A stretch of DNA of 64,000 nt from contig OY760074.1 in the NCBI GenBank assembly GCA_963663035.1, positions 214,358 through 278,357 on the forward strand, read 5' to 3'. The stretch comes from Acidobacteriota bacterium (GTDB lineage Bacteria > Acidobacteriota > UBA6911 > RPQK01 > JADFOI01). Numbering within the stretch: position 1 is the stretch's first letter; every line of letters starts with the position of its first letter. The translations under genes were made by a program, and so were the position numbers. Below the pieces are notes generated by a model. It was not told where the DNA came from, ran no database searches, and worked only from the letters and a program-made list of their open reading frames with translations. Shown here in pieces: positions 15,590-54,860 of this stretch.

Positions 15590-15633
15590 GACTGAGGCAG
15601 GTAGGGGCTGTGCGCCCCTACCCCGTCTCAGTG
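15590..15633. repeat. REP-B palindromic element between convergent genes (short fused form)
   Basis: ACTGAGGCAGGTAGGGGCTGTGCGCCCCTACCCCGTCTCAGT. Corresponds to the two arms of the longer element at 48704-48786 with the middle deleted. Overlaps the TAG stop of the kinase gene. Likely bidirectional terminator. Confidence 0.4.
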
Positions 15634-17620
15634 GGAAAGCGAAGGCTGAATTCGGTGCCGGGCTTGCGGTTGGTGACATCCACATGGGCTCCCATGGCAT
15701 CCGCCAACATCTTCACCAGGGCCAGGCCGATTCCTGTGCCCCGGGTGGTCCGGGTCATCTCGTTGTCGATGCGGTAGAATTTCTCAAAGATGCTCTTGAG
15801 CTTCCGGCTGGGAATTCCGGGGCCAAAGTCTCTGACCCGAATATAGCAGTCCGTCCCTACCTGGCTCACCGTCAACACAATCTTCTTTGATTCGGCTTCT
15901 TTTGAAAACTTGATGGCATTATCGATGAGATTGATCAGGATCTGGGTCAGGGCATCGGTGTCCACCTGGATCGATTGGACCTCTCCTTCCGTGACGGTGG
16001 AAAACTCAAAGCCGGCTCTCTGAACCTGGTTGTTGAGTCGCTCCGTGATACTCGTGATCAATTCGACAGGATGTCGAGCCTCAAGATTGATTTGCCACTC
16101 GTTTCGCTCCAACTCGGCCAGGGTCAGTACATTTTGAATCAGCCGACTGAGTCGCTCACTCTCGTCATGGATGTGCTGGTAGTAGCGCTCCTTCTTCTCT
16201 TCTTCCACCCATCCTTCCATGAGGATCTCACCATACATTCGGATCGCAGTCAGTGGGGTTTTCAGCTCATGGCTGACCGCAGAAACGAAATCGCTCTTCT
16301 TTTGGGAAAGCTCCATCTGGCTGGTGGTCAGTCGATAGATTCCAAGAAGCCCCCCGAAGAACAGCAGTGAAAGGAAGACAGCCAGAACGTTCACCAGTTG
16401 ATGCGCCGGGCTTTGGGGAAGGTTGCCCACGGTAATGGCCAGTTGAAAGTCGCTGAGGGGATAGGGCAATGCGGAGCTGTGAAGGAGCAAGGGCTTTGGA
16501 TTGCTCGAATCACCTGCCTCCGGCTGCAAGATCTCCCCCTCGTAGAAGACGAGGTAAGAGGCCGTCTCCGGCAGCGCCGAGTTCAGAAGAGCTGGGTCCA
16601 GGTGGGCTTGGAGAAATTCTGTAAGGCTTGTGGCAAAGCCCTGAATGTATCGTCTCTCTTGTGCCCAAACACTCCTGTAGAGCACCAGCCAGTTCCTGTC
16701 AATGAGTTCGCTCTGAAAGGGATCCACTTCCGCCACCACTTCCGCTTCTGGTTGGACATCGGCATCTCGAGGTGCGAGCTGTTCGTCTCTCCTTCGGAGA
16801 GGACGGGGCTCTGGTTCTCCAGCCACCAGGCTGGACAGGTTATCTGCGCTCTGAGCGGATGCATTTCCCTTGGCCTCATCCAACTCGTCAGAGTAGGCGT
16901 CCTTGAGTTTGGAGTCAAAGACCTCGGCCTGCATGGGTGAGGTCTTCTGGACCCGGCGCTGGACACTCTCTTTCTTCTCCTCCACTTCACTGCTCACGCC
17001 CAGTCCAGGCTCTCTTGAGGCCTGCCTGGCGTACTCACTCTCCAGAGTGACGTCGACATTCGACTCCAGATTCTCCCTGAACTCTGAGAGGCTTTCCCCC
17101 ACAGAAGCAGGGGCTTCCTCCAGAATCAGGTCGTCCAGTTGAGCTCGCAATCCGGTGGACGGGGAGAAGGTGCGTCCCTCCAGCAGAGTGACGAGTTGGT
17201 CCCTCATCTGTTCACGCTCTTCCCTCTGGGGGACGACCATCCCACTGTCCGACACCCCATCCGGCAAGAGCGGACTGTGGAAGGTTCCGTCCGGATCAAT
17301 CTGGAAATAGCCCAGGATGCCCGGGATTTCCGATTGCACCGGAAAGCTGGCTAGCGGCGACAGGTTTAAGCCTTCCTGCTGCGGAACCGGCCGATCGGCA
17401 ACATGAATATAGCGGTAGTGGGTGTAAGGCCGCTGCTCTTCAACCAGGAGGTTCTCCTGTAGCCGCTGGTGGACCGTTGCCATCAGGCCCTCAGCAGTCC
17501 TGCGATAGAGGAAGAAGGACTCCTGCTCCAGATTGCTATAGGTGTGCCTTAGCAGGATCACCATGGGGACAGCCAGCAAGATGAAGAAAAGCGCGAAATA
17601 CAGACGCAGTCGTTTCATGC
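15618..17620 (-). CDS. Sensor histidine kinase with large N-terminal extracytoplasmic domain
   Basis: HisKA SHELKTPLTAI, HATPase N-box LINLIDNAIKFS and G-boxes GTGIGLALV. Start taken as MKRLRLYFALFFILLAV (TM helix). The ORF-track extension to 17765 is regarded as spurious. Confidence 0.75.
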
Positions 17621-18325
17621 TTCCCCCTTTACTTGGTAGCCCTCGCCACGAACCGTCACCAGCAACTGGGGTTGAGTGGAATCGATCTCGATTTTGCGCC
17701 GCAGCTTGGCTATGTGGATATCGACCGTTCGGGTTTCGACATAGTCGACATTGCCGTAGCCCCACACTTCCTGCAGCAGTTCCTTCCGCGAGACCGGGCG
17801 GGCTGCCCGGCTGAGGTACACCAGGATCTCTAGCTCGCGCCGGGTGAAGAGGATCTCTTCCCCATCTCTTTTGCCCATCAGATGTTCCGGGTGAATGAGG
17901 AGATCTCCTAGACTGAAAGCATTCATGTCTGTGTGGAGTTTGCCCGATCGCCTCAGAACGGCCTCCACTCGCGCCAGAAGCTGCCCGACCGAGAAAGGTT
18001 TCGGAATGTAATCGTCTGTTCCCAGTTTGAGGCCCCGGATGATGTCTTCTTCGGAGGTCTTGGCTGTCAGCATGATGATGGGCAAGTGCCGGTCCACCTC
18101 ACGGATTCGATTACAAATGCTAAAGCCATCCAGACCGGGAAGCATGATATCCAGGAGTATCAGGTGATAGTCACCACTGAGGGCCATCTCCAGAGCAGCA
18201 TGACCTTCCACTGCGGTCTCCACCTGGTAGCCATTATAGACAAAGACATCGGTCAGTCCCTGAAGGATCGACTCCTCATCTTCTATGATCAGCAGTTTTG
18301 GCTTGGCCGGCTTCATGTCTTTCAT
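17615..18325 (-). CDS. OmpR/PhoB-family response regulator
   Basis: Start MKDMKPAKPKLLIIEDE (ATG at 18325). Receiver domain (D in LILLDIMLPGLDG), winged-helix C-terminus (VDIHIAKLRRKI). Overlaps the kinase gene by 6 nt. Confidence 0.8.
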   Translation of the reverse strand: MKDMKPAKPKLLIIEDEESILQGLTDVFVYNGYQVETAVEGHAALEMALSGDYHLILLDIMLPGLDGFSICNRIREVDRHLPIIMLTAKTSEEDIIRGLKLGTDDYIPKPFSVGQLLARVEAVLRRSGKLHTDMNAFSLGDLLIHPEHLMGKRDGEEILFTRRELEILVYLSRAARPVSRKELLQEVWGYGNVDYVETRTVDIHIAKLRRKIEIDSTQPQLLVTVRGEGYQVKGEA

Positions 18326-18348
18326 TCTAATGCCTTTCTGCTCGTTTG

Positions 18349-18364
18349 TGTGTAAACACTTTGT
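18349..18364. promoter_or_regulatory. GTAAA-N6-GTAAA direct repeat in the RR/VWA divergent promoter region
   Basis: GTAAACACTTTGTAAA. Same pentamer family as the motifs at 26250-26279 and 44241-44255. CpxR-type OmpR-family regulators bind GTAAA-N5-GTAAA. Confidence 0.3.
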
Positions 18365-18490
18365 AAAAGTTGGCGCCTGCCTTTTTACCGAGAGTTGTCT
18401 ACTAATTTGTTCTGTGGATCGGTCAGTATGGGTATGAGCGAAATGGCGTTCACAAACAACCAAAACCAAGACAACTGAAAGGAGAACAAC

Positions 18491-19963
18491 ATGAACGTAC
18501 TAACCAGGTTTCAAACATTTGGAAAATCTCGACGGGGCGGCATCCTGGCCTTACTGCTCGGTATCCTGGCCACAGTCCTCTGGGTGCAGGTTCGAGCGGG
18601 AGCCTTTCCGGGATACCCTCACGTGGGTGGTGTCGACCCTCAGCCGTCTGTCCACCCCAAAACGGGTGTCCAGTTCCAGGCGTCCCTCTCCCAGCCGATG
18701 ATCGTCCAGGGAAGTGATGGCACGGTCTACTTGGACCTGTCTGTCGTTACTCCCAAGATCTCGCGGCCGGACATCTTGAGGATGCCCACCGACACCATCG
18801 TGGTCCTGGATCGCAGCGGTTCCATGGCAGAGGACAACAAGTGGATGTTTGCCACCCAAGCTGTCCACTCGCTCCTGGACCGCCTCATGTCCGGAGACCG
18901 CATCGCTTTGGTGACCTTCGACACCCACGCCCGTGTCCAATCGCAATTGGTCTCGGCCAACGAAACGAACATCCAGCGCTTTAGAGATATCGTGAACAGC
19001 CTGAGTCCCGGAGCTTCGACCAATCTGGGCGACGGACTCCTGGCCGCCGAAAGGATGGCAGCAGCTTTACGCGTATCAGAGCGGGGGCGACGAGTCATCC
19101 TTCTGTCCGATGGTCAGGCCAATGTTGGTATCTCCCACCCGCTGGAACTCAATGCCATTGCCCGACGGATTGCGGATCAGGGCAGCATTCTTTCCACTGT
19201 TGGCATGGGACTGGGATTCAACGAGAACCTCCTGGCTTCCCTGGCTGACAACGGCATGGGCAGCTTCAGTTATCTCGAGCATCTGGAATCGCTGGGTACG
19301 ATCCTGGCCCAGGAGCTGGATGACTCCCGCGACGTCTACGCCGATAGTTCCCAGATGCGAATTCATCTCCCCATGGGTGTGGAGCTTGTGGAGGCCTCCG
19401 GTTATCCCTTTGTTCTGGAGGGAAGAACGGCCGTTATCCGGACCGGTCAGCTTTTCCAGGATAGTAACAAAAGCTTTATGGCCACTCTCCGGGTTGCCAA
19501 TCACGTGCCCGCTGAGTACACGCTGGGCAACATCGACTTGAGCTACCGGGTGGACGGTCATTCCTACAAACAGGAAGTCGAATCGTCAGGATTGACCATC
19601 GCCTGCGTTCCCGCAGAGCGAGAAGAGGAAGCGGTGGCTTCGATCGACAAGGATGTCTATCGGGACGCCTGGATCAGGAACAACCTGGGCTCGGTCATGA
19701 GAGAAGTGGGTGACTTCGTTCGCAAAGGAGACCGGCAACAAGCCGAGGAGCTGCTGGAAGACTATAAAGAACGCCTGGAGGAAGCAGATCAGGCCGTGCC
19801 CGGTATAAAGAAGGAGGCAACTGCTCAACTGGACGAGCTGAAAGCCAGAGTCGACGATGCCTTCCAGGGCCCCGCCCAGAGAGCCAAGCAGAACCGTGCC
19901 GCCAAGGCCTTCCTGGGTGAGAGTCAGGAGCTTCAAAGAGAAGTCAACAAGAACAACAACTAG
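18491..19963 (+). CDS. von Willebrand factor type A (VWA) domain membrane protein
   Basis: 490 aa. N-terminal TM. MIDAS motif DRSGSM ... SDG ... Coiled-coil/charged C-terminus. The stop TAG is the last 3 nt of the CTAG that flanks IS copy 1. Confidence 0.75.
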   Translation: MNVLTRFQTFGKSRRGGILALLLGILATVLWVQVRAGAFPGYPHVGGVDPQPSVHPKTGVQFQASLSQPMIVQGSDGTVYLDLSVVTPKISRPDILRMPTDTIVVLDRSGSMAEDNKWMFATQAVHSLLDRLMSGDRIALVTFDTHARVQSQLVSANETNIQRFRDIVNSLSPGASTNLGDGLLAAERMAAALRVSERGRRVILLSDGQANVGISHPLELNAIARRIADQGSILSTVGMGLGFNENLLASLADNGMGSFSYLEHLESLGTILAQELDDSRDVYADSSQMRIHLPMGVELVEASGYPFVLEGRTAVIRTGQLFQDSNKSFMATLRVANHVPAEYTLGNIDLSYRVDGHSYKQEVESSGLTIACVPAEREEEAVASIDKDVYRDAWIRNNLGSVMREVGDFVRKGDRQQAEELLEDYKERLEEADQAVPGIKKEATAQLDELKARVDDAFQGPAQRAKQNRAAKAFLGESQELQREVNKNNN

Positions 19964-21602
19964 CCCGGATTATTCATAAATTCTGAAGAAGGGGTCTGAT
20001 CGAGGGCACAAAAAGATGCCGTACCTATTTGATATAAAAGGGGTTATGAAACAACTCCAAACCAAAAAGGTACGGCCCAGCGATGCATCAGTCTGCCAGA
20101 TCAACTTGCCATCTCACCCTGACAGAAAAGTGGTGGCTCGATTCGATGGAGGCCGGCTCTCCTCCGATGCCGGGCTGCTGTGTCTGTACGCCCTGGATCA
20201 ACAGCACGGACTGACGGCTGGCTTTGCCTCCTGCCTGAAGGACGCTCGAGATAGCCGCTACGTCCGCCACCAGATTCGCGAACTGCTCACCCAGCGCAGC
20301 TTTCAGATCGTGGCCGGCTATGAGGACTGCAACGATGCCGACAGCTTGCGCTCGGATCCCATCTTCAAGACCGTGTGTGATCGGCTGCCGGAAAGCGATC
20401 CGGATCTGGCTTCTCAACCCACGCTGTCGCGACTGGAGAACTCGGTGGACTCGAAGGATCTCACTCGCCTGGGACAGTGGCTGCTGGAGACCTACTTGAA
20501 GCACCGCAAGAAGAGCCGGCCCGAGAAGATCATCCTGGACATCGACAGCACGGATGACGTCACGCATGGGCAGCAGGAGTTCAGCTTTTACCACGGCTAT
20601 TATCGCGAGCACATGTATCATCCGCTGCTGCTATTCGATGGCGAGACGGGCGATCTGGTATGTGCGCTACTGCGGCCCGGCAACCAGGGGGCGGCCGCCC
20701 ACGCGGTGGCGGTTCTCAAACGGGTGGTGGCCCGGATGCGCCAGGTTCTGGGATCCGATGTTCCGATCGAAGTGCGAGCCGACAGTGGCTTTGCGACGCC
20801 GGCACTGTACGAGTTCTGTGAGGAGGAAAAACTGCAGTATGTGGTGGGCTTTGCCCGCAACTCCCGGCTGGCGGCCACCGTCGAGCCCTTGGTTGAGCAG
20901 GTGCAAGCAGACTATGACGACTCAGGAGAAAAGCAACGCCAGTTCACCGAGCTCGTCTATCAGGCCGACAGTTGGGACCGGGAGCGGCGCATGGTGGCCA
21001 AGGTGGAAGTGAGCGAGCGCGGGTTCAACCGTCGCTTTGTGGTCACCAACCGCCAGGATCTCACGGCCGGGCAGCTGTATGACCACTACATCGGACGGGG
21101 CCAGTGCGAGAACTTCGTGAAAGCTTTCAAAAAAGATCTGGCCATGGATCGCTTGAGCTGCCACCGTTTCCTGGCCAACCAGTTCCGACTCTTCATCCAC
21201 GCCCTGGCCTATGTCTTAATCCTGCGCCTGCGGGATTACCTGTGCGGGACTCCCTGGCACAACCTGGAGATTGAGACGCTCCGCCGCCGCCTGTTCAAAA
21301 TCGGTGCCCGGGTTCGGGAAACTTCTCGTCGCATCTGGGTGCACCTGGCATCGTCTTATCCCGAACAAAAGCTCTTCGCATTACTGATGCACCGTCTGTG
21401 TCCCACCTGACGGTCCCCTGACTCCCTGCGCCAACACAGATATACAGCCCCCTGCGGGCCGAGCTGTTTCCGGAAGGGGCTCTCGCTTCATCTCTATTCG
21501 GCTCAACAAGCTTGGACGCCTTGTAATCGCACCTGAACACACTCTCAGCCCTGAACTTCCGCAGAAAATCGACACTCACCCCAAACTTATGAATAATTGC
21601 GG
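19964..21602 (+). mobile_element. Insertion sequence, IS4-superfamily (best fit IS1380 family), copy 1, 1639 bp, flanked by CTAG/CTAG
   Basis: Imperfect terminal IRs CCCGGATTATTCATAAATT ... AACTTATGAATAATTGCGG (start with CC). Single 464-aa DDE transposase ORF. CTAG at 19960-19963 and 21603-21606. Identical to copy 2 apart from one synonymous SNP seen at 20027. Confidence 0.8.
20016..21410 (+). CDS. DDE transposase (IS4/IS1380-like)
   Basis: 464 aa. DSTD...RADSGF...Y(2)R(3)E(3)K (YIGRGQCENFVKAFK) DDE_Tnp_1-type signature. N-terminal PTLSRLEN motif. Confidence 0.85.
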   Translation: MPYLFDIKGVMKQLQTKKVRPSDASVCQINLPSHPDRKVVARFDGGRLSSDAGLLCLYALDQQHGLTAGFASCLKDARDSRYVRHQIRELLTQRSFQIVAGYEDCNDADSLRSDPIFKTVCDRLPESDPDLASQPTLSRLENSVDSKDLTRLGQWLLETYLKHRKKSRPEKIILDIDSTDDVTHGQQEFSFYHGYYREHMYHPLLLFDGETGDLVCALLRPGNQGAAAHAVAVLKRVVARMRQVLGSDVPIEVRADSGFATPALYEFCEEEKLQYVVGFARNSRLAATVEPLVEQVQADYDDSGEKQRQFTELVYQADSWDRERRMVAKVEVSERGFNRRFVVTNRQDLTAGQLYDHYIGRGQCENFVKAFKKDLAMDRLSCHRFLANQFRLFIHALAYVLILRLRDYLCGTPWHNLEIETLRRRLFKIGARVRETSRRIWVHLASSYPEQKLFALLMHRLCPT

Positions 21603-21616
21603 CTAGGAGGAACATA

Positions 21617-22204
21617 ATGGCTATTACAAATCGTATAAGACGACTTTTTCATGCCGATGTACACGCTGTTTTGGACATCATCGAGGAGCCCGAAGCAATT
21701 CTGAAGCAGGCGATTCGAGAGATGCAGGAGGCTCTTGACTTGAAGAGAGCCCGGCTGGCCAGGGACCAAAGGAACCTGGCCTCGCTGAAAGGGGCCGAGA
21801 CCTATTCCAACGAGCAGCTGGCAAAGGTTCAGAAAGATGTGAAGCTTTGCTTGAGGCAAGGCTCTGAGGACCTGGCCCGCAAGACGGTGGGGCGTAAGCT
21901 TGCCCTGGAGAAACATGTGGCAGTTGTAAAGCAGCGCATCTCGGCCGGGGAGAAACTCCACCAGAAGAACAAGCAGGAGATTGATCTTCAGCAGGGCCAA
22001 CTCGAGTCGATAGTCGAAAAGGCCAAACTGTTTGTGCCGACGGCAGCGGAGGACTCAGTCTTCTCTGTTGCCGAGTCCATTCTCACCAGCGCTGAGCGGG
22101 GTGCCGGTCGAGGCTATCCCGGCGGCATGCAGGTGAGTGAGGAGGAAATCGAACTGGAATGGATACGCATTCGCGACGGTCTCGACAAGGGAGGTGCCTC
22201 ATGA
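21617..22204 (+). CDS. pspA: PspA/IM30-family protein
   Basis: 195 aa. N-terminus RIRRLFHADVHAVLDIIEEPEAILKQAIREMQEAL matches the PspA/Vipp1 N-terminal helix, with a coiled-coil body. The RBS GGAGG begins with the last G of the IS right-flank CTAG. Confidence 0.8.
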   Translation: MAITNRIRRLFHADVHAVLDIIEEPEAILKQAIREMQEALDLKRARLARDQRNLASLKGAETYSNEQLAKVQKDVKLCLRQGSEDLARKTVGRKLALEKHVAVVKQRISAGEKLHQKNKQEIDLQQGQLESIVEKAKLFVPTAAEDSVFSVAESILTSAERGAGRGYPGGMQVSEEEIELEWIRIRDGLDKGGAS

Positions 22205-22782
22205 AGCGACCCACCATCTTTGCGGGAATCGCTTTCGCTTTTGTGGTTGCTGTCTTCACGGTGCCGGTATGGTGGGGGGGCAAAACAGCCCTGCCTTTTT
22301 CACTGGCCTTCCGTTTGATCACACTGAGTGGCTATCTCGCCTATTGCTTCTATTTGTTGAGGACGGCCAAAACCCGCGTGGGGGCGCTCACCCTGGCCAC
22401 TGCCAATCTGGTGACCGCGCTGGCGCTCTCATTCCTGCCTCTTACCAACTCGATGATGGTCGGGGCACTGGTGGTCATGATCAGTCTGAACCGTTCACTG
22501 CTCTTTCAACGCAGTCTGATGGCCATTGCTCTTGATGGTCTGGTGTCGGGAGCAGGATTGATGTTTGCCGGGTATCTCTTCACCAAAACGGGAAGCGTGC
22601 CCGCGGCAATGTGGAGTTTCTTTCTGCTGCAGTCGGTATTCGTGCTGATTCCGCCGCGATCATGGGGAGAGGCCGGCCTCTTCTCAGCCGATGAAAGCGG
22701 GGACACAGTGGATGTTTTCGTTCACCCCCAACGGCAGGCAGAGGCGGCGCTGGAGCGGATTGTCCAGGAGGGCGTGGGGTGA
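22201..22782 (+). CDS. Integral membrane protein co-transcribed with pspA (hypothetical)
   Basis: ATGA overlap with the pspA stop. 4-5 predicted TM helices (MKRPTIFAGIAFAFVVAVFTVPVWW...). Confidence 0.5.
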   Translation: MKRPTIFAGIAFAFVVAVFTVPVWWGGKTALPFSLAFRLITLSGYLAYCFYLLRTAKTRVGALTLATANLVTALALSFLPLTNSMMVGALVVMISLNRSLLFQRSLMAIALDGLVSGAGLMFAGYLFTKTGSVPAAMWSFFLLQSVFVLIPPRSWGEAGLFSADESGDTVDVFVHPQRQAEAALERIVQEGVG

Positions 22783-22800
22783 AAAGGGTTTGAAGATTGG

Positions 22801-22820
22801 GAGCGGCCAGGGGGCCGCTC
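22801..22820. terminator. GC-rich hairpin between convergent genes
   Basis: GAGCGGCC-AGGG-GGCCGCTC, an 8-bp stem with no clear U-tract. Candidate bidirectional terminator. Confidence 0.3.
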
Positions 22821-22884
22821 CCTTCGGCACCTGAGGTGTCTCCCACGTTCCCGAAGGACCCTTTATACCTCCCACGTTCCCCCT

Positions 22885-23988
22885 CTACAGGCCCAGCATG
22901 GTTTCGTCTGCCAACATGTCGACGACCGCTTCAAAGCTCTCCGTTTCCTCGTATTTCCTCAGTTGTCGATCGGCGCTTGTCCCTTCCTTGAGGATGGTTC
23001 GGATGTAGGCTACTTCTTCGTGTATGTCCAACTGGTCCAGGACGTCGCCCAGTATTTCCAACAGTTCTTCCAGCAGAGAACGAAGGGGCACTTCTTTTTC
23101 CTTCCCCCAATCCAACAAGTCCCCATCGATTCCCGCCTTGGCTGCCCGCCATTTGTTTTCCGCGACCAGGGCCCGGCGGTAACGGCGCCAGCTCTGATTG
23201 TTTTCCCGCAACTGAATCAGCTTTGCGACCATGGCTTGTAGGAGAGCGGCAATGGCAATGACTTCGTCTATCTTGGTCGTGCAGTCGCAGATTCTGAACT
23301 CCAGGGTCGGAAACTTGGGATGAGGGCGAATGTCCCACCAAATTTTAGTCGGCTCGTCTATGCAGTGGGTCTTGATCAGGGTTTGGACAAACTCATCATA
23401 TTCTGTGGCAGAATCAAAGTACTCGGGGAGACCAGTTCGCGGAAGATCTTCAAAAATAACACTTCTATAGGATTTCAAGCCGGTGTTGCGTCCCAGCCAA
23501 AAAGGAGAGGAGGTGGACAGACTCAGAATGTGAGGCATGAAGTAGGTAATTTGATTCATGACGTCAATGCGTAAGTCCTCATCGGGGATGCCGATATGTA
23601 CATGCATTCCGAAGACTAACAGGCGGCGGGCAACATCCTGCAGGTCTCCTTCTAAAACCCTATAGCGAGCCTTATTGGTAATGACCTGATCTTCCCAGCG
23701 AGAAAAAGGGTGAGTGCCAGCTGCCACAAACCTGCGGTTGTGACCGTCGGCGATCTCCCCAACCAGGCTGCGAAGTTGCTTGACCTCTTTGCGAAGTTCC
23801 TTGACGTTTTGGCACACCAGGCTTCCGGTCTCAATCTGAGATTGGAGAAACTCCGGTTTGACTTGATCCCTGAAAAGCGTGGCCTTCCCTTTCAAGAATT
23901 CAGAGATGTAAGAAGTCAACTCCCGGGTCTGGGGGTCAATAATTTGATATTCTTCTTCGATTCCAATGGTTAGGTCGGCAAGATCCAT
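22885..23988 (-). CDS. ybdK: YbdK-type carboxylate-amine ligase (glutamate-cysteine ligase family 2)
   Basis: Start MDLADLTIGIEEEYQIIDP (ATG at 23988), characteristic GCS2 N-terminus. The ORF-track extension to 24336 is regarded as spurious. Confidence 0.7.
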   Translation of the reverse strand: MDLADLTIGIEEEYQIIDPQTRELTSYISEFLKGKATLFRDQVKPEFLQSQIETGSLVCQNVKELRKEVKQLRSLVGEIADGHNRRFVAAGTHPFSRWEDQVITNKARYRVLEGDLQDVARRLLVFGMHVHIGIPDEDLRIDVMNQITYFMPHILSLSTSSPFWLGRNTGLKSYRSVIFEDLPRTGLPEYFDSATEYDEFVQTLIKTHCIDEPTKIWWDIRPHPKFPTLEFRICDCTTKIDEVIAIAALLQAMVAKLIQLRENNQSWRRYRRALVAENKWRAAKAGIDGDLLDWGKEKEVPLRSLLEELLEILGDVLDQLDIHEEVAYIRTILKEGTSADRQLRKYEETESFEAVVDMLADETMLGL

Positions 23989-26494: not shown

Positions 26495-28090
26495 ATAGGG
26501 GGACAGAGCAGACCGTACCCATTTCTTTTGTCCCTTTTTTCCCCGCCAGCGCCAGCCTAGAATGCCGGCATACAGAATCAGGGAAACAACTGAGATCCAC
26601 TTCCCGATGCGAAAGCCTGCCGGCGCATACTCGATGCGAAGATGATGATTTCCCGCACCCAGGGGAACGGCTCGCAAGATGTAGTTGGCGGGCAGAAGGT
26701 CGTAATTCTGTTGAACGCTGCCGGGAAGGGCCACTGCTCGCCAGCCCTTGCTGTAGCTGTCCGTAATCAGCAAGATGGCGGGAGCCGGAAGGCGGGCTTC
26801 CACAACCAGATAATCCGTGCCCTCCTCGGTAATGGTGGCGGTACCAGGCCGGTCAGTTTTGACGGGAGCCGGGACAGGAGCAGTTTCCAGAATGACCTGT
26901 TGCCGAGGGTCGAAAGAGGAGTTGCTCATGGTGGCAAAGATGCGGCCGCGCTCCTGAATGAGCACCCAGTCCTGGATCAATTCCAGCCGCGACAGGGGCG
27001 AGGGGATCTCCTCGAAGCCCTGTCTGCCGCCCTCTGAGAAAAATACATAACGACCTCGCAGCATCCCGAAGAGGGGATGGATGCGCGACAGTTCCAGATA
27101 CTGACTAGCGGTCTGAGGGTTCTGGCCCTGGGTAAATGTCATGAACTCGGCATAGCGCTTGAGCACGCCGGGATCATGTCCCCATAGGTCCTGGGCACCT
27201 GTGCTGAGGGCACTGTTCGGGTTGGGGGGCAGTGAAACACGATAATCACCCGGATTGGCTTCGTAGAATTGCTGTATAAGAGGAAGCCGTGTCGTTTCCA
27301 GATCAAAGGTCGGTCTGTTGGCTGTGGCAAAGATAAACATCTCCAAGGCGGCAAGCAACGGTACGAGATACACGGCTCTGGGAGCCACCCGTGTGCGCCG
27401 CAGCAGCAGACTAAAGAGCAGGCATGAAGCGCTGCAAAGGAGCACACCCTTTGCAGTAAACACGCCTGCACCGTTGACAAAGGCTTGGTCTTGATAGCTA
27501 CCCAGTGGCAGATAGGACTCCCCAGTGGCGGCCACCGCTGACATGAGGGATCCCCACGTCCCGCTGAACCCGGAAGCTGCCGAAAGGTATATCCACAGGC
27601 CCACAGCACCCACCGCCAGTCCTGCGAATGACAGTAGCTTTGCCAGACGTTGACGCCAGGGAGGATCGTGCAGGAGATTGTCCAGGCCAATGGCGGAGAG
27701 CATGACGCTGAACATGGCTACCAGAAAAATGAACTTTGAATTGCCCCGAAACATGTCGAATCCCGGTACGGACCTGTAAAGCAGATTGAAGAGGGGTGTG
27801 TAAGTCCCCAGAGCAAGAACCGATAAAATCAGCGTCATGGAGACCGAAGACAGCCGCAGTTTCCGGCTGCCCCGCACAGCTCCCGACACTGCCAGGACAA
27901 AACCAGTCACACCTATGAACAGCGACATCTCCCACAGATACCACCGTCCCCAGTAACTGCTCATGCCGCCGAAGAATCCTGGGACCAGGAGGGTGAGAAA
28001 GTTCTCTGGCGGGAAGGAGAACATGGCCGCAAACGCATAGGATGTTCCGCTGCTGCGTACACTCTCGCCGGCTGCCTCCAGGCCAGCTAG
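26492..28090 (-). pseudogene. YfhO-family membrane protein gene, C-terminal part, split by IS copy 2
   Basis: Polytopic C-terminal region. It continues in frame with the N-terminal part at 29730-30432 if the IS and one CTAG are removed. Confidence 0.6.
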
Positions 28091-29729
28091 CCCGGATTAT
28101 TCATAAATTCTGAAGAAGGGGTCTGATCGAGGGCACAAAAAGATGCCGTACCTCTTTGATATAAAAGGGGTTATGAAACAACTCCAAACCAAAAAGGTAC
28201 GGCCCAGCGATGCATCAGTCTGCCAGATCAACTTGCCATCTCACCCTGACAGAAAAGTGGTGGCTCGATTCGATGGAGGCCGGCTCTCCTCCGATGCCGG
28301 GCTGCTGTGTCTGTACGCCCTGGATCAACAGCACGGACTGACGGCTGGCTTTGCCTCCTGCCTGAAGGACGCTCGAGATAGCCGCTACGTCCGCCACCAG
28401 ATTCGCGAACTGCTCACCCAGCGCAGCTTTCAGATCGTGGCCGGCTATGAGGACTGCAACGATGCCGACAGCTTGCGCTCGGATCCCATCTTCAAGACCG
28501 TGTGTGATCGGCTGCCGGAAAGCGATCCGGATCTGGCTTCTCAACCCACGCTGTCGCGACTGGAGAACTCGGTGGACTCGAAGGATCTCACTCGCCTGGG
28601 ACAGTGGCTGCTGGAGACCTACTTGAAGCACCGCAAGAAGAGCCGGCCCGAGAAGATCATCCTGGACATCGACAGCACGGATGACGTCACGCATGGGCAG
28701 CAGGAGTTCAGCTTTTACCACGGCTATTATCGCGAGCACATGTATCATCCGCTGCTGCTATTCGATGGCGAGACGGGCGATCTGGTATGTGCGCTACTGC
28801 GGCCCGGCAACCAGGGGGCGGCCGCCCACGCGGTGGCGGTTCTCAAACGGGTGGTGGCCCGGATGCGCCAGGTTCTGGGATCCGATGTTCCGATCGAAGT
28901 GCGAGCCGACAGTGGCTTTGCGACGCCGGCACTGTACGAGTTCTGTGAGGAGGAAAAACTGCAGTATGTGGTGGGCTTTGCCCGCAACTCCCGGCTGGCG
29001 GCCACCGTCGAGCCCTTGGTTGAGCAGGTGCAAGCAGACTATGACGACTCAGGAGAAAAGCAACGCCAGTTCACCGAGCTCGTCTATCAGGCCGACAGTT
29101 GGGACCGGGAGCGGCGCATGGTGGCCAAGGTGGAAGTGAGCGAGCGCGGGTTCAACCGTCGCTTTGTGGTCACCAACCGCCAGGATCTCACGGCCGGGCA
29201 GCTGTATGACCACTACATCGGACGGGGCCAGTGCGAGAACTTCGTGAAAGCTTTCAAAAAAGATCTGGCCATGGATCGCTTGAGCTGCCACCGTTTCCTG
29301 GCCAACCAGTTCCGACTCTTCATCCACGCCCTGGCCTATGTCTTAATCCTGCGCCTGCGGGATTACCTGTGCGGGACTCCCTGGCACAACCTGGAGATTG
29401 AGACGCTCCGCCGCCGCCTGTTCAAAATCGGTGCCCGGGTTCGGGAAACTTCTCGTCGCATCTGGGTGCACCTGGCATCGTCTTATCCCGAACAAAAGCT
29501 CTTCGCATTACTGATGCACCGTCTGTGTCCCACCTGACGGTCCCCTGACTCCCTGCGCCAACACAGATATACAGCCCCCTGCGGGCCGAGCTGTTTCCGG
29601 AAGGGGCTCTCGCTTCATCTCTATTCGGCTCAACAAGCTTGGACGCCTTGTAATCGCACCTGAACACACTCTCAGCCCTGAACTTCCGCAGAAAATCGAC
29701 ACTCACCCCAAACTTATGAATAATTGCGG
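28091..29729 (+). mobile_element. Insertion sequence, IS4-superfamily (best fit IS1380 family), copy 2, 1639 bp, flanked by CTAG/CTAG
   Basis: Same IRs and ORFs as copy 1. CTAG at 28087-28090 and 29730-29733. Inserted in the yfhO-like gene. Confidence 0.8.
28143..29537 (+). CDS. DDE transposase (identical to 20016-21410)
   Basis: Protein identical over 464 aa. Confidence 0.85.
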   Translation: MPYLFDIKGVMKQLQTKKVRPSDASVCQINLPSHPDRKVVARFDGGRLSSDAGLLCLYALDQQHGLTAGFASCLKDARDSRYVRHQIRELLTQRSFQIVAGYEDCNDADSLRSDPIFKTVCDRLPESDPDLASQPTLSRLENSVDSKDLTRLGQWLLETYLKHRKKSRPEKIILDIDSTDDVTHGQQEFSFYHGYYREHMYHPLLLFDGETGDLVCALLRPGNQGAAAHAVAVLKRVVARMRQVLGSDVPIEVRADSGFATPALYEFCEEEKLQYVVGFARNSRLAATVEPLVEQVQADYDDSGEKQRQFTELVYQADSWDRERRMVAKVEVSERGFNRRFVVTNRQDLTAGQLYDHYIGRGQCENFVKAFKKDLAMDRLSCHRFLANQFRLFIHALAYVLILRLRDYLCGTPWHNLEIETLRRRLFKIGARVRETSRRIWVHLASSYPEQKLFALLMHRLCPT

Positions 29730-30432
29730 CTAGGGCTGCGGCTCCCACATACATGCTGCCCAATCCCAGCACCAGCCGTGGTCGTTCCCGTGCCCGGATA
29801 AGACGAAGCCCGCTATAGAGCCCGGCGGCGATAGCCGTGTAAAACACATACTGGGGATGGCCGGCAAGAATCTGCATGGTGATGGCAAACATACCCATCA
29901 GACACCAGGTGAAGGAACGTTCTTGGAGCAGGCCATCAATGGCCAGAAAGAGCAGTGGTGCCCATACCATGGCGCAGAGATTGGGGAGGTGCCCGGCAGA
30001 GACATGCAGGAAATAGGGACCGGAGAACATAAAGAGGATGGATGAAAGGAGGCAAGCTGCTGGATGAAGCCCCCGGTGAAAGGTCCAGAGATAGATAAAC
30101 AGCCCGGCCAGGAACACATGCAGCGCAATGCTCACATTAATTGCCTTGGCAAGCGGCAGCACCAGATACACCCAGTTGGGTGGATAGAGCAAGGCGGACT
30201 GAAAGCCTCCAAAGTATGGCATCCCCGAAAAGATGTGCGGATTCCACAGGGCCAGGTTGCCTTGGCCCAGCTGGCTGAAACCAAACTCGCGCCAATAGAC
30301 GAACTGCGAGGACAGGTCGGTGCCCAATTGGGAGAGAATCACCTCTTTCGACGTGAACAGCACATCGACGAACATGAGAAGCGTCAATCCAAAGAGAACC
30401 AGAAGAGCCAGTAGGAAAGTTTTCTCTCGCAT
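29730..30432 (-). pseudogene. YfhO-family membrane protein gene, N-terminal part
   Basis: MREKTFLLALLVLFGL...DLSSQFVYWREFGFSQ...NPHIFSGMPYFGG is the characteristic YfhO N-terminus. The ORF-track extension to 29422 reads into the IS. Confidence 0.6.
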
Positions 30433-52673: not shown

Positions 52674-52787
52674 CTAGGCGGGATTATGCCTTATTCCGGC
52701 TACACCGGATCAAAGGCCGGTAGTACCGTGCCGGTATCCTCTGATCAACAGCACGGACTGACGGCTGGCTTTGCCTCCTGCCTGATA
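52674..52787. mobile_element. IS/MITE remnant: degenerate IR-IR palindrome plus a 47-bp internal fragment of the IS transposase gene
   Basis: CTAGGCGGGATTATGCCTTATTCCGGCTAC (compare 25624). Then 52741-52787 matches transposase-gene positions 20194-20240 (CTGGATCAACAGCACGGACTGACGGCTGGCTTTGCCTCCTGCCTGA). Confidence 0.5.
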
Positions 52788-53349: not shown

Positions 53350-54860
53350 ATAATCGGTTTGTTACCTTATCCTTAAACTATCGGTTTGTTCTAAAGACTA
53401 CCTCGTCGACTGAAAGAGGTTCCGTCAATAAGTGTGTAAATAGACATCAGGCGGCTTTCTCCTGGGTGACTGGGTTGACTGGAACTCCATTGACATATTG
53501 GGCTCCTTGGTAGACATCCTTCATCAAGTGGGGAGCCTTCAAACGGCGAAATCTCTTCTCAGCGACCAGCAGCATCTTCCAGATGACAGCCCGTGCGTTG
53601 GCCACTTTCTTGAACCTTCGAGCAGCATCGGTTCGCAGTCGCAGAGCAGAGAAGGGAGACTCCACTGGGTTGGTAGTCCGCAGATGTTGCCACTGCTGTT
53701 TGGGATAGTTGTAAAACGTCACCATCCGCTCCCAGTCCTGGTCGATCAGATCAGCCGCTGCCTCCAGGCCTCTCTTGCTACACCAATGTTGGAATCGTCC
53801 TTTGACTCGCTCGGCTTCCTGCCGTGTTTCTGCATAAGGGATCTGCCGCAACATCAACAAGGCCGCTTTGTGCCGACTCTTGGGGATCTTGGCCAGCAAG
53901 TTGACGATGCGATGATTCCAGCATCTCTGCTCGTCGGCTTCTGGGAACACGTTGCGCAACGCTCCCCAGATCCCCAGATGCCCGTCAGCGATCACCAGAC
54001 GGGGTGGGTTCATCCCCCGCTCTTTGAGATCCCGCAGCACTGCGGACCAGCTCTGGGTCGATTCTCGATAACCACTACTGACGGACACCACCACTTTAGT
54101 GCCATCACTTAAAGCGGCGATCACTACCAGAATCACGGCCTTCTCCTTCTCCAGCCCTGCTTTGATGTACACGCCGTCCGCCCACAAATACACGACTTCC
54201 AGATCATCCAGCCGACGGCTCTGCCAGGCCTCCATTTCTCCCTGCCACTTCTGTTTCAACCGGGCTACGGTGCTGGGGGACAGCGGCGCTTCTTCCCCTA
54301 AAAGCCCTCTCAAGGCCAGATCGAAATCCCCCTCGGCCAGACCATGTAAATAGAGTTCTGGAATCAAGTCTCGTACCTCTCGCGTTCGCTTGGCAAACAG
54401 CGGCAAGACCCGGCTCTCAAAACGCTCTTCCAGATCCCGCACTCGGGGACGCCGCAGCTTGATCGTTCCGCAACTCATCGTCAGTCGCCGCTCCTTGCCG
54501 TAGCCGTTGCGATAGCCACCGGAGGCGTCCACTTCTCGGCGACGCTCATTCTTTCTTCGTCCCAGCAGCTGTGTCACTTCATCCTCCAGCAGTTCCTGTA
54601 CGTAAAACTGGATCTGCTCTCGCACCCACTCTTCCAGCTGTTCAAAGCAGACTCTTGACTCCACACTGTGATCAATGTTCTTCTTGCTCATGGCGGTGTG
54701 ACTCCTTCCTTTCGGGCTCTTCCGCCCGGGTTTTTATTTTCACCCGGAAGGATAATCACCGCCTGTGCTATTTACACACCTTTTGAGGGTAGCTCCGACT
54801 GAAATGATCGGTTTGCTAGTCGACGAATCTGAACGGCAGAAGAGTAGACTGCTGAGTAGC
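53350..54860 (-). mobile_element. IS256-family insertion sequence (boundaries approximate)
   Basis: Single Mutator-type transposase ORF with about 100-170 bp non-coding ends. The ends share ATCGGTTTG and CGACTGAAA motifs, but clean terminal IRs and TSD could not be resolved by eye. Confidence 0.5.
53447..54691 (-). CDS. IS256-family (Mutator-like) transposase
   Basis: 414 aa. YLWADGVYIK, ALSDG, CWNHRIVNLL and TTNPVESPFSALR motifs are diagnostic of Transposase_mut/IS256. Confidence 0.85.
   Translation of the reverse strand: MSKKNIDHSVESRVCFEQLEEWVREQIQFYVQELLEDEVTQLLGRRKNERRREVDASGGYRNGYGKERRLTMSCGTIKLRRPRVRDLEERFESRVLPLFAKRTREVRDLIPELYLHGLAEGDFDLALRGLLGEEAPLSPSTVARLKQKWQGEMEAWQSRRLDDLEVVYLWADGVYIKAGLEKEKAVILVVIAALSDGTKVVVSVSSGYRESTQSWSAVLRDLKERGMNPPRLVIADGHLGIWGALRNVFPEADEQRCWNHRIVNLLAKIPKSRHKAALLMLRQIPYAETRQEAERVKGRFQHWCSKRGLEAAADLIDQDWERMVTFYNYPKQQWQHLRTTNPVESPFSALRLRTDAARRFKKVANARAVIWKMLLVAEKRFRRLKAPHLMKDVYQGAQYVNGVPVNPVTQEKAA

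What the first reader, a model, noticed from the sequence alone, without database searches (positions are those of the whole stretch)
19960..21620. IS copy 1 inserted precisely on the stop codon between a VWA gene and pspA, preserving the upstream stop and the downstream RBS
Seen in sequence:
- the VWA ORF ends ...AACAACAACTAG, and that CTAG is the left flank of the IS;
- the right flank CTAG is immediately followed by GAGGAACATAATG, the pspA start;
- without the IS the two genes would be 13 nt apart (TAG-GAGG-N8-ATG), i.e. one operon (VWA, pspA, 4-TM membrane protein) downstream of a divergent OmpR-type two-component system.

Established knowledge: ISEcp1 and IS1247, both IS1380 family, drive expression of adjacent genes.

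Inference: pspA and the membrane-protein gene may now be transcribed from the IS, decoupled from the VWA gene and from the two-component system.
Basis: partly seen in the sequence, partly recalled or inferred. Interest (0 to 1): 0.5.

Follow-up and report, generated by a model that had tools for sequence, protein, structure and literature searches.

The report
CTAG-targeting IS1380 element splitting a pspA operon
A recently active jumping gene (an IS1380-family insertion sequence) sits between two genes of a membrane-stress operon in an uncultured Acidobacteriota genome. Its apparently surgical placement on the stop codon is simply what an element that always inserts into the four bases CTAG will do.

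Summary
A 1,639-bp IS (19964-21602) with a 464-aa IS1380-family transposase lies between the VWA gene's TAG stop and the pspA ribosome-binding site, flanked by a 4-bp CTAG duplication. A 99.9%-identical metagenome contig without the IS reads AACAACAACTAGGAGGAACATAATG. That proves the duplication; the true gap is 10 nt, not 13.

The precision is not special:
- Ten of the 11 further insertion sites of this IS (including window copy 2) are flanked by CTAG and one by CTAA.
- Across all 90 sites of this IS and its 65-74% relatives, the spectrum is CTAG >> CTAA > TTAG, the same as IS5.
- CTAG is about 5-fold depleted, and 20-40% of the remaining CTAGs overlap stop codons.
- About 22% of insertions abut a stop codon, which matches that background.

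The promoter idea is partly supported, at motif level only:
- The IS right end carries TCGACA-17-AATAAT facing pspA.
- This is one of only four sites in the whole window with at least 10 of 12 matches, and two of the four are the two IS copies.
- Its position is conserved in diverged relatives.

However, the transposase gene is co-oriented with the operon and no convincing intrinsic terminator was found, so read-through is not excluded. There is also no orientation bias suggesting selection.

Verdict: an ordinary, new member of a known IS family. Low interest.

The parts
15618..17618 (-). Sensor histidine kinase of the divergent two-component system (666-aa gene call)
   Evidence: HisKA and HATPase_c domains. 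Gene call of 666 aa in L001/L002.
17615..18325 (-). OmpR-type response regulator (236-aa gene call)
   Evidence: Response_reg and Trans_reg_C domains. Gene call.
18491..19963 (+). VWA-domain protein with an N-terminal hydrophobic anchor; first gene of the operon. Its TAG stop is bases 2-4 of the left CTAG.
   Evidence: PF00092 VWA, E=3e-16. Sequence.
19960..19963 (.). Left copy of the 4-bp target-site duplication, CTAG
   Evidence: Empty site L001 has a single CTAG.
19964..21602 (+). IS copy 1: a 1,639-bp IS1380-family insertion sequence
   Evidence: Boundaries defined by identity with copy 2, by 10 further copies and by the empty site.
19964..19983 (+). Left terminal inverted repeat (CCCGGATTATTCATAAATTC); 15 of 20 bases match the right repeat
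   Evidence: Sequence. Compared with relatives' ends, CCCGGATTATGCA.
20016..21410 (+). Transposase gene, 464 aa, co-oriented with the VWA-pspA operon
   Evidence: PF13701, 505.9 bits; NF033539 IS1380-family transposase, 399.7 bits against cut-off 180. The identical protein was seen on 173 contigs.
21569..21597 (+). Outward-facing sigma-70-like promoter motif TCGACA-17-AATAAT (10 of 12 matches). The -10 lies inside the right inverted repeat. The predicted start is about 21603-21606, just before the pspA ribosome-binding site.
   Evidence: It is the only hit in 18200-23000. It is one of 4 sites with at least 10 of 12 matches in the whole window, and 2 of those 4 are the IS copies. The position is conserved in relatives. 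Not tested experimentally.
21583..21602 (+). Right terminal inverted repeat (AAACTTATGAATAATTGCGG)
21603..21606 (.). Right copy of the 4-bp target-site duplication, CTAG
21605..21610 (+). pspA Shine-Dalgarno sequence AGGAGG, partly formed by the duplicated target
   Evidence: Conserved in relatives.
21617..22204 (+). PspA/IM30-family gene (195 aa)
   Evidence: PF04012, 57.6 bits against cut-off 33.9.
22201..22782 (+). Multi-pass membrane protein (193 aa). Its start overlaps the pspA stop (ATGA).
   Evidence: Gene call; overlap; hydropathy; no Pfam or NCBIfam hit.
28091..29729 (+). IS copy 2, 99.94% identical and flanked by CTAG/CTAG. It interrupts a YfhO/DUF2079-like membrane protein gene on the minus strand.

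Best explanation
**Summary:** This is a recent, population-polymorphic insertion of a previously unnamed IS1380-family insertion sequence in an uncultured Acidobacteriota genome. The 'precise' stop-codon placement reflects target chemistry, not selection.

**Shown**
- The element is 1,639 bp, encodes one 464-aa DDE transposase, has imperfect terminal repeats starting with CC, and makes a 4-bp duplication.
- The element and its relatives insert almost exclusively into the palindrome CTAG, less often CTAA or TTAG (consensus YTAR), and duplicate it.
- The VWA gene happened to end in C-TAG, with the pspA ribosome-binding site directly behind it. Staggered cleavage of that CTAG and repair left one CTAG, and hence an intact TAG stop, on the left. 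It left one CTAG plus the untouched AGGAGG-N6-ATG on the right.

**Inferred: effect on expression**
- pspA and the overlapping membrane-protein gene have lost their 10-nt linkage to the VWA gene.
- They probably receive two kinds of transcript:
  - read-through from the VWA promoter across the co-oriented transposase gene, which is likely attenuated;
  - transcripts from a complete outward-facing promoter, TCGACA-17-AATAAT, in the last 34 nt of the IS. Its predicted start lies at the IS/target junction, giving a leader of about 13 nt that still contains the ribosome-binding site.
- The primary role of that promoter is probably the element's own. No promoter is recognisable in the 52 nt upstream of the transposase start. 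The outward promoter could drive the transposase across an end-to-end junction. Activation of neighbouring genes would be a by-product.
For: **Family**
- PF13701, E=8e-152, and NF033539, 399.7 bits against cut-off 180.

**Ends and duplication**
- Established by sequence, empty site and further copies.

**Target specificity**
- 11 of 12 distinct sites of this exact IS are CTAG and 1 is CTAA.
- Among 90 sites including relatives at 65-74% amino-acid identity in other Acidobacteriota MAGs: CTAG/CTAG 54, CTAA 12, TTAG 4.
- This is the same spectrum as IS5 in ISfinder: 15 CTAG, 3 CTAA, 3 TTAG of 24 (PMC5493358).

**Background**
- The window has 45 CTAG, about 5-fold fewer than my own estimate of about 240 from base composition.
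- 29-41% of non-IS CTAGs in the window, and 21.5-36% in the fetched flanks, overlap the stop of a long ORF.
- About 22% of insertions abut the stop of an ORF of at least 150 codons. This is my tally of the ORF lengths listed (20 of 90 sites). The figure is 43% at a threshold of 80 codons.

**Recency and polymorphism**
- The IS-free contig L001 is 99.9% identical to the window, as close as the IS-bearing L002 at 99.93%.
- IS copies are 99.7-99.9% identical to each other.
- The exact transposase was seen on 173 contigs.

**Operon**
- HK-RR | VWA-PspA-membrane is conserved, without an IS, in 7 metagenome contigs. Where pspA is complete, PspA identity goes down to 58%.
- The stop is immediately followed by a GGAG-type ribosome-binding site (GGAGG in most).

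**Promoter**
-. Family precedent in PMC9330008.

**Host**
- NCBI names members of the 90%-identity PspA cluster as Acidobacteriota MAG proteins.
Against: - No expression data exist. The promoter is a consensus match only.
- Its -10 lies in the inverted repeat, which is conserved for transposase binding anyway. The applicability of the E. coli consensus to Acidobacteriota is assumed.
- A 13-nt leader starting 1-2 nt before the ribosome-binding site may translate poorly.
- The junction-promoter role for the transposase is inference. Nothing here shows circular or tandem intermediates.
- The count of stop-codon insertions relies on raw ORFs, not curated genes.
Confidence: 0.85

Rival explanations
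1. Adaptive rewiring, a stronger form of the first reader's view. The insertion was selected because the IS promoter makes pspA and the membrane protein constitutive. This frees them from the two-component system and the VWA gene.
For: - A strong outward motif with conserved position.
- IS1380-family elements are known to activate neighbouring genes (PMC9330008).
- The IS-bearing allele is seen in at least three assemblies.
Against: - The frequency of stop-codon insertions equals the CTAG background.
- The promoter-bearing end faces gene starts no more often than the other end (31 vs 29 within 250 nt; 17 vs 10 within 60 nt, not significant).
- The IS-free allele coexists at 99.9% identity.
- The same genome carries many copies, including a gene-disrupting one 6.5 kb away. 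This fits neutral or mildly deleterious IS expansion.
Confidence: 0.1
2. Silent passenger. The operon is still transcribed as one long VWA-transposase-pspA-membrane mRNA from the VWA promoter. The IS promoter motif is inactive or irrelevant, and regulation by the two-component system is retained.
For: - The transposase gene is co-oriented with the operon.
- Only one weak terminator-like hairpin was found (5-bp stem, poor T-tail, 21476-21489).
- The 3' untranslated region of the IS has no significant structure (z=+1.5) and no Rfam match.
- The pspA ribosome-binding site is intact.
Against: - The 192-nt untranslated stretch after the transposase stop, plus 1.6 kb of extra RNA, invites Rho-dependent polarity (established general knowledge, not tested here).
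- The promoter motif is one of the four best consensus matches in 64 kb.
Confidence: 0.3
3. Polar knock-down. The IS mainly reduces pspA and membrane-protein expression by interrupting the operon, as ordinary gene decay in an IS-laden genome.
For: - The IS is highly expanded, and a neighbouring copy plainly disrupts a gene.
- The 10-nt coupling between VWA and pspA is lost.
Against: - pspA and the membrane gene are intact ORFs, identical in protein sequence to those in the IS-free contig.
- An outward promoter motif is present.
Confidence: 0.2
4. Assembly artefact or chimeric join at a repeat.
For: None beyond the general risk with multi-copy repeats in metagenome assemblies.
Against: - Both junctions carry a clean 4-bp duplication.
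- The same junctions appear in three non-identical assemblies, and there is a matching empty site.
Confidence: 0.01

Closest known systems
ISEcp1, ISPme1 and IS1247 (IS1380 family)
   Same: - The same transposase family by curated HMM.
- A single ORF, an element of about 1.65 kb, and terminal repeats beginning with CC.
- A non-coding 3' region with a complete outward promoter motif near the right repeat. Such a promoter drives downstream genes in those elements (PMC9330008).
   Different: - No nucleotide match covering 80% of the element in the plasmid collection; the best hits are about 70% over 9%.
- The best relative among GTDB species representatives has 74% protein identity.
- The duplication is 4 bp with a strong CTAG/YTAR preference. 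IS1247 is listed with 5 bp (PMC3281130), and ISEcp1 has 5 bp by my own recollection.
- The -10 lies inside the inverted repeat.
- Promoter activity and mobilisation of adjacent DNA were not shown here.
IS5 (IS5 family)
   Same: The target spectrum is essentially identical: a 4-bp duplication of Py-T-A-Pu, with CTAG the most common, then CTAA and TTAG (PMC5493358). IS5 is also known for activating adjacent operons.
   Different: The transposase is not IS5-family. No IS5-family model was among the NCBIfam hits, and IS1380 is the only family above its cut-off.
Bacillus liaIH-liaGFSR (PspA homologue LiaH, membrane partner LiaI, two-component system)
   Same: The interrupted operon pairs a PspA/IM30-family protein with a small multi-pass membrane protein and an adjacent two-component system. 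This is the general logic described for Lia-type PSP systems (PMC11237479).
   Different: - The response regulator is OmpR-type (Trans_reg_C), not LiaR-type.
- A VWA-domain protein precedes pspA.
- The membrane protein has no recognised domain.
- VWA does not occur in the main text of the PSP survey.

Membership tests
IS1380 family of insertion sequences | Transposase matches the family's curated profile above its cut-off | tested here: met
   NF033539 transpos_IS1380, 399.7 bits (cut-off 180), covering profile positions 2-418 of 419. PF13701 DDE_Tnp_1_4, 505.9 bits (cut-off 34.7).
IS1380 family of insertion sequences | Single transposase ORF in an element of roughly 1.6-2.0 kb (range from my own knowledge of ISfinder) | tested here: met
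   1,639 bp with one 464-aa ORF.
IS1380 family of insertion sequences | Short terminal inverted repeats beginning with CC | tested here: met
   Left end CCCGGATTATTCATAAATTC against the right-end complement CCGCAATTATTCATAAGTTT, 15 of 20 matching. Relatives have perfect CCCGGATTATGCA ends.
IS1380 family of insertion sequences | Target-site duplication of 4-5 bp | tested here: met
   4 bp at all 12 distinct sites of this IS, verified by an empty site.
IS1380 family of insertion sequences | Intact DDE catalytic triad | not tested
   Full-length match to the DDE profiles (PF13701, PF01609) and evident recent activity. Individual catalytic residues were not mapped.
IS1380 family of insertion sequences | Functional outward promoter at the 3' end (typical of ISEcp1 and ISPme1, not defining) | tested here: inconclusive
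   Motif TCGACA-17-AATAAT at 21569-21597, with conserved position in relatives. No transcript data.
IS5 family (considered because of the YTAR/CTAG target) | IS5-family transposase | tested here: not met
   No IS5-family model among the NCBIfam hits. There are only weak sub-threshold hits to IS4, IS1634 and IS701.
PspA/IM30 family (downstream gene) | Match to PF04012 above the gathering score | tested here: met
   57.6 bits against 33.9, residues 5-136.
PspA/IM30 family (downstream gene) | Equivalog of E. coli PspA or Bacillus LiaH | tested here: not met
   TIGR02977, 41.4 bits against cut-off 242.95. NF045984 LiaH, 34.8 bits against 380. It is a family member, not an equivalog.

The most novel reading that the evidence does not exclude
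This clade of IS1380 elements may act as a nearly scarless mobile promoter. It inserts only into CTAG and duplicates it. Landing on a C-TAG stop codon inside an operon therefore preserves the upstream stop and the downstream ribosome-binding site. The complete promoter in the last 34 nt would start transcription exactly at the junction. In IS-laden Acidobacteriota genomes, with dozens of copies each, this would repeatedly uncouple downstream operon genes from their native regulation. Here it would uncouple a PspA membrane-stress module from its two-component system, making the IS a significant driver of regulatory evolution.
Probability: 0.1. Interest if true: 0.4.

Novelty: new member of a known kind. 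Interest (0 to 1): 0.15.

Why it matters
The result mainly serves as a caution. A seemingly designed insertion, with stop codon and ribosome-binding site both preserved, is the default outcome for any element that targets CTAG. CTAG is rare, and a fifth to two-fifths of the surviving CTAG sites overlap TAG stop codons.

There are two modest positive results:
- An unnamed, highly expanded IS1380-family lineage in uncultured Acidobacteriota has an IS5-like YTAR target preference and a positionally conserved outward promoter motif.
- A naturally occurring pair of IS-plus and IS-minus alleles, 99.9% identical, exists for a conserved VWA-PspA-membrane operon. This pair could be used to measure the effect of the IS on expression in metatranscriptomes.

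Tried and rejected
- **Plasmid collection, distant mode.** Only about 70% identity over 9% of the IS. No named close relative was found.
- **Exact look-up of the 490-aa VWA protein.** Not on record. The closest assembly, L002, has a variant 3' end.
- **Rfam at a permissive threshold over 18300-22900.** No hit.
- **Folding of the IS 3' region plus junction.** No more stable than shuffles (z=+1.5), so no evidence for a terminator, riboswitch or structured RNA.
- **Orientation bias relative to stop codons.** All 4 stop-codon insertions of the exact IS are co-oriented with the upstream gene. In the larger set of 90 sites the split was 23 vs 16, which is not significant.
- **Orientation bias relative to downstream gene starts.** Counts were 31 vs 29. 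This argues against selection for promoter delivery.
- **Assembly artefact.** Considered and rejected.
- **IS5-family membership.** Considered because of the target, and rejected.
- **Host species among GTDB representatives.** The best transposase match was 74%. The phylum was inferred instead from NCBI names of cluster members.
Full report
**1. The observation**

- The VWA-domain ORF (18491-19963; PF00092) ends AACAACAAC-TAG.
- The tetranucleotide CTAG (19960-19963) abuts an element that starts CCCGGATTATTCATAAATTC and ends ...CTTATGAATAATTGCGG at 21602.
- A second CTAG (21603-21606) follows, then GAGGAACATA and the ATG of a PspA/IM30-family gene (21617-22204; PF04012).
- The element holds one ORF (20016-21410, 464 aa) on the same strand as the operon.

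A second copy, 99.94% identical over all 1,639 bp, lies at 28091-29729. It is also flanked by CTAG on both sides. It splits a YfhO/DUF2079-like membrane-protein gene on the opposite strand.

**2. Proof of the insertion and its age**

An exact-protein look-up of PspA returned three contexts.
- L001 (ENA ERZ21829562) has no IS. It reads ...AACAAGAACAACAACTAGGAGGAACATAATGGCT, with one CTAG, and is 99.9% identical to the window on both sides.
- L002 (a 2.59-Mb contig of ERZ28763718) and L003 carry the IS at the same junction. They are 99.93% and 99.8% identical to the window, so they are independent assemblies.

The insertion is therefore real, created a 4-bp CTAG duplication, and is polymorphic among near-identical strains.

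**3. What the element is**

- The transposase scores 399.7 bits on NCBIfam NF033539 'IS1380 family transposase' (cut-off 180) and 505.9 bits on PF13701.
- Its size, single ORF, CC-initiated imperfect inverted repeats (15 of 20) and 4-bp duplication fit the family.
- No close nucleotide relative exists in the plasmid collection.
- The best match among GTDB species representatives is 74% protein identity.
- The exact transposase sequence was seen on 173 contigs.
- NCBI labels members of the 90%-identity PspA and membrane-protein clusters as Acidobacteriota MAG proteins. The host is therefore an uncultured Acidobacteriota.

**4. Why it sits 'precisely on the stop codon'**

Ten further copies of the exact IS in two other assemblies were mapped to the base.
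- Together with the two window copies, 11 of 12 distinct sites are flanked by CTAG/CTAG and one by CTAA/CTAA.
- For 78 copies of the 65-74% relatives plus these 12, the flanks are CTAG/CTAG 54, CTAA 12, TTAG 4, CTAC 2, CTCG 2, CTAT 1. The rest are mixed pairs, probably from recombination or mutation.
- This YTAR spectrum with CTAG dominant is the one recorded for IS5: 15 CTAG, 3 CTAA, 3 TTAG of 24 (PMC5493358).

CTAG contains TAG and is duplicated. Any insertion into a C-TAG stop therefore leaves the stop intact on one side and everything downstream intact on the other.

CTAG is rare here. There are 45 in 64 kb, against about 240 by my own estimate from base composition. A large share of what remains overlaps stop codons:
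- 17 of 41 non-IS CTAGs in the window for ORFs of at least 80 codons, and 12 of 41 for at least 150 codons;
- 36% and 21.5% respectively in the fetched flanks.

Insertions abutting such stops make up 43% at 80 codons. At 150 codons the figure is about 22%, by my tally of the ORF lengths listed. Both are indistinguishable from the background. Three of the ten extra copies (L006, L011, L012) also sit directly after a called gene's stop. The 'precision' is target chemistry and needs no further explanation.

**5. The interrupted operon**

A scan of JGI metagenome contigs with PspA found the same arrangement in relatives, with no IS in any of them.
- The arrangement is a histidine kinase and OmpR-type regulator on one strand, with VWA, PspA and the membrane protein on the other.
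- Six contigs carry the VWA-PspA-membrane trio, with PspA identity from 91% down to 58%. A seventh (L105) is cut off within pspA.
- Five of the seven also hold the kinase and regulator. The other two begin inside the VWA gene.
- In each, the VWA stop (CTAG, CTAA or TAA) is immediately followed by a GGAG-type ribosome-binding site (GGAGG in most).
- Where the membrane gene is present, it abuts or overlaps the end of pspA. In the window the overlap is ATGA at 22201-22204.

The membrane protein has no family match and shows about 5-6 hydrophobic segments rather than a clear four.

**6. The promoter hypothesis**

The consensus scan of 18200-23000 found one sigma-70-like site: TCGACA-17-AATAAT at 21569-21597 on the + strand. 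It lies inside the IS right end and points at pspA.
- Re-implementing the rule over the whole window gave only four sites with at least 10 of 12 matches on both strands. Two of them are the right ends of the two IS copies.
- The same geometry (hexamer-17-hexamer-5 nt-tip) is present in the diverged relatives. L016, L028 and L040 have TCAACA-17-CATAAT, L041 has TCAACT, and L014 and L015 have TTTAAA-17-CATAAT. Neighbouring sequence differs.
- The left end has the -10-like hexamer, as part of the repeat, but no -35.
- A start about 7 nt after the -10 would fall at 21603-21606. That gives a leader of about 13 nt which begins just before AGGAGG.
- Complete outward promoters are experimentally documented for ISEcp1 and ISPme1 of this family. 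They are also proposed to serve transposase expression across IS junctions (PMC9330008).

All of this remains motif-level evidence.

**7.

- The transposase gene is co-oriented with the operon.
- The only terminator-like feature in the IS 3' region is weak (5-bp stem, poor T-tail).
- The region folds no better than shuffles, and nothing matches Rfam.
- Read-through from the VWA promoter is therefore not excluded, so 'decoupled' is unproven.
- Across 90 insertions, the promoter-bearing end faces an ORF start within 250 nt in 31 cases against 29 for the other end (17 vs 10 within 60 nt, not significant). There is no sign that insertions are retained because they deliver a promoter.
- The IS-free allele persists at 99.9% identity.

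**8. Verdict**

This is an ordinary, recently active IS1380-family element. It is new as a named element, and it has an IS5-like CTAG preference that I could not find described for this family in the searchable literature. It is inserted in a conserved VWA-PspA-membrane operon.
- The 'precision' is explained away by target preference.
- The promoter idea is plausible but untested.
- Interest is low.

Noticed in passing
window 28087-29733; L001 12473-12494: IS copy 2 splits a YfhO/DUF2079-like membrane-protein gene on the minus strand. The IS-free contig L001 does not show a simple empty site. It reads CTAG-GAGTTGCACTGCCG-CTAG, 18 bp more than the window would have after removing the IS. This suggests either an IS-adjacent deletion to a neighbouring CTAG or allelic variation. 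L001 also has the gene split into two overlapping calls (a possible frameshift).
   Followed up: partly
window 52674-52785: A 43-bp stretch (52743-52785) is 100% identical to IS positions 233-275, inside the transposase gene. About 65 nt upstream lies CTAG followed by GCGGGATTATGCC, which resembles the relatives' terminal repeat CCCGGATTATGCA. It looks like a heavily deleted relic of a related IS. It overlaps an unannotated 216-aa minus-strand ORF with no Pfam hit.
   Followed up: partly
window 53447-54691 (-): An IS256/Mutator-family transposase (PF00872, E=8e-60) lies here. An 80%-identical relative lies next to an IS1380-like copy in Acidobacteriota MAG OZ240092 (L073). These genomes therefore share several IS lineages.
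   Followed up: no
L002 4335-4380: In the 2.59-Mb assembly that also carries the IS, the VWA 3' end reads AACAACGACCTAG instead of AACAACAACTAG. This shifts the frame so that the VWA ORF runs 8 codons into the IS (498 aa). It is either a real variant in which the stop is not preserved or a consensus error.
   Followed up: no
window 15618-22782; L094-L099, L105: The module of histidine kinase and OmpR-type regulator divergent from VWA-PspA-membrane protein is conserved in metagenome contigs (PspA identity down to 58% where the gene is complete). A more distant contig (L103, 38%) has the regulator directly next to PspA, with no VWA detected in between. VWA does not occur in the main text of the large PSP-partner survey (PMC11237479), so this PspA context may be undescribed.
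   Followed up: partly
whole window: CTAG is about 5-fold under-represented: 45 observed against about 240 by my own estimate from base composition. Among TAG stops of ORFs of at least 200 codons, 9 of 17 are preceded by C.
   Followed up: partly
L014-L093 (GTDB Acidobacteriota MAGs OZ252114.1, OZ240092.1, CBDBHK01, CBDCBX01): Relatives of this IS (65-66% transposase identity, perfect CCCGGATTATGCA ends) are present in very high copy number.
   Followed up: partly
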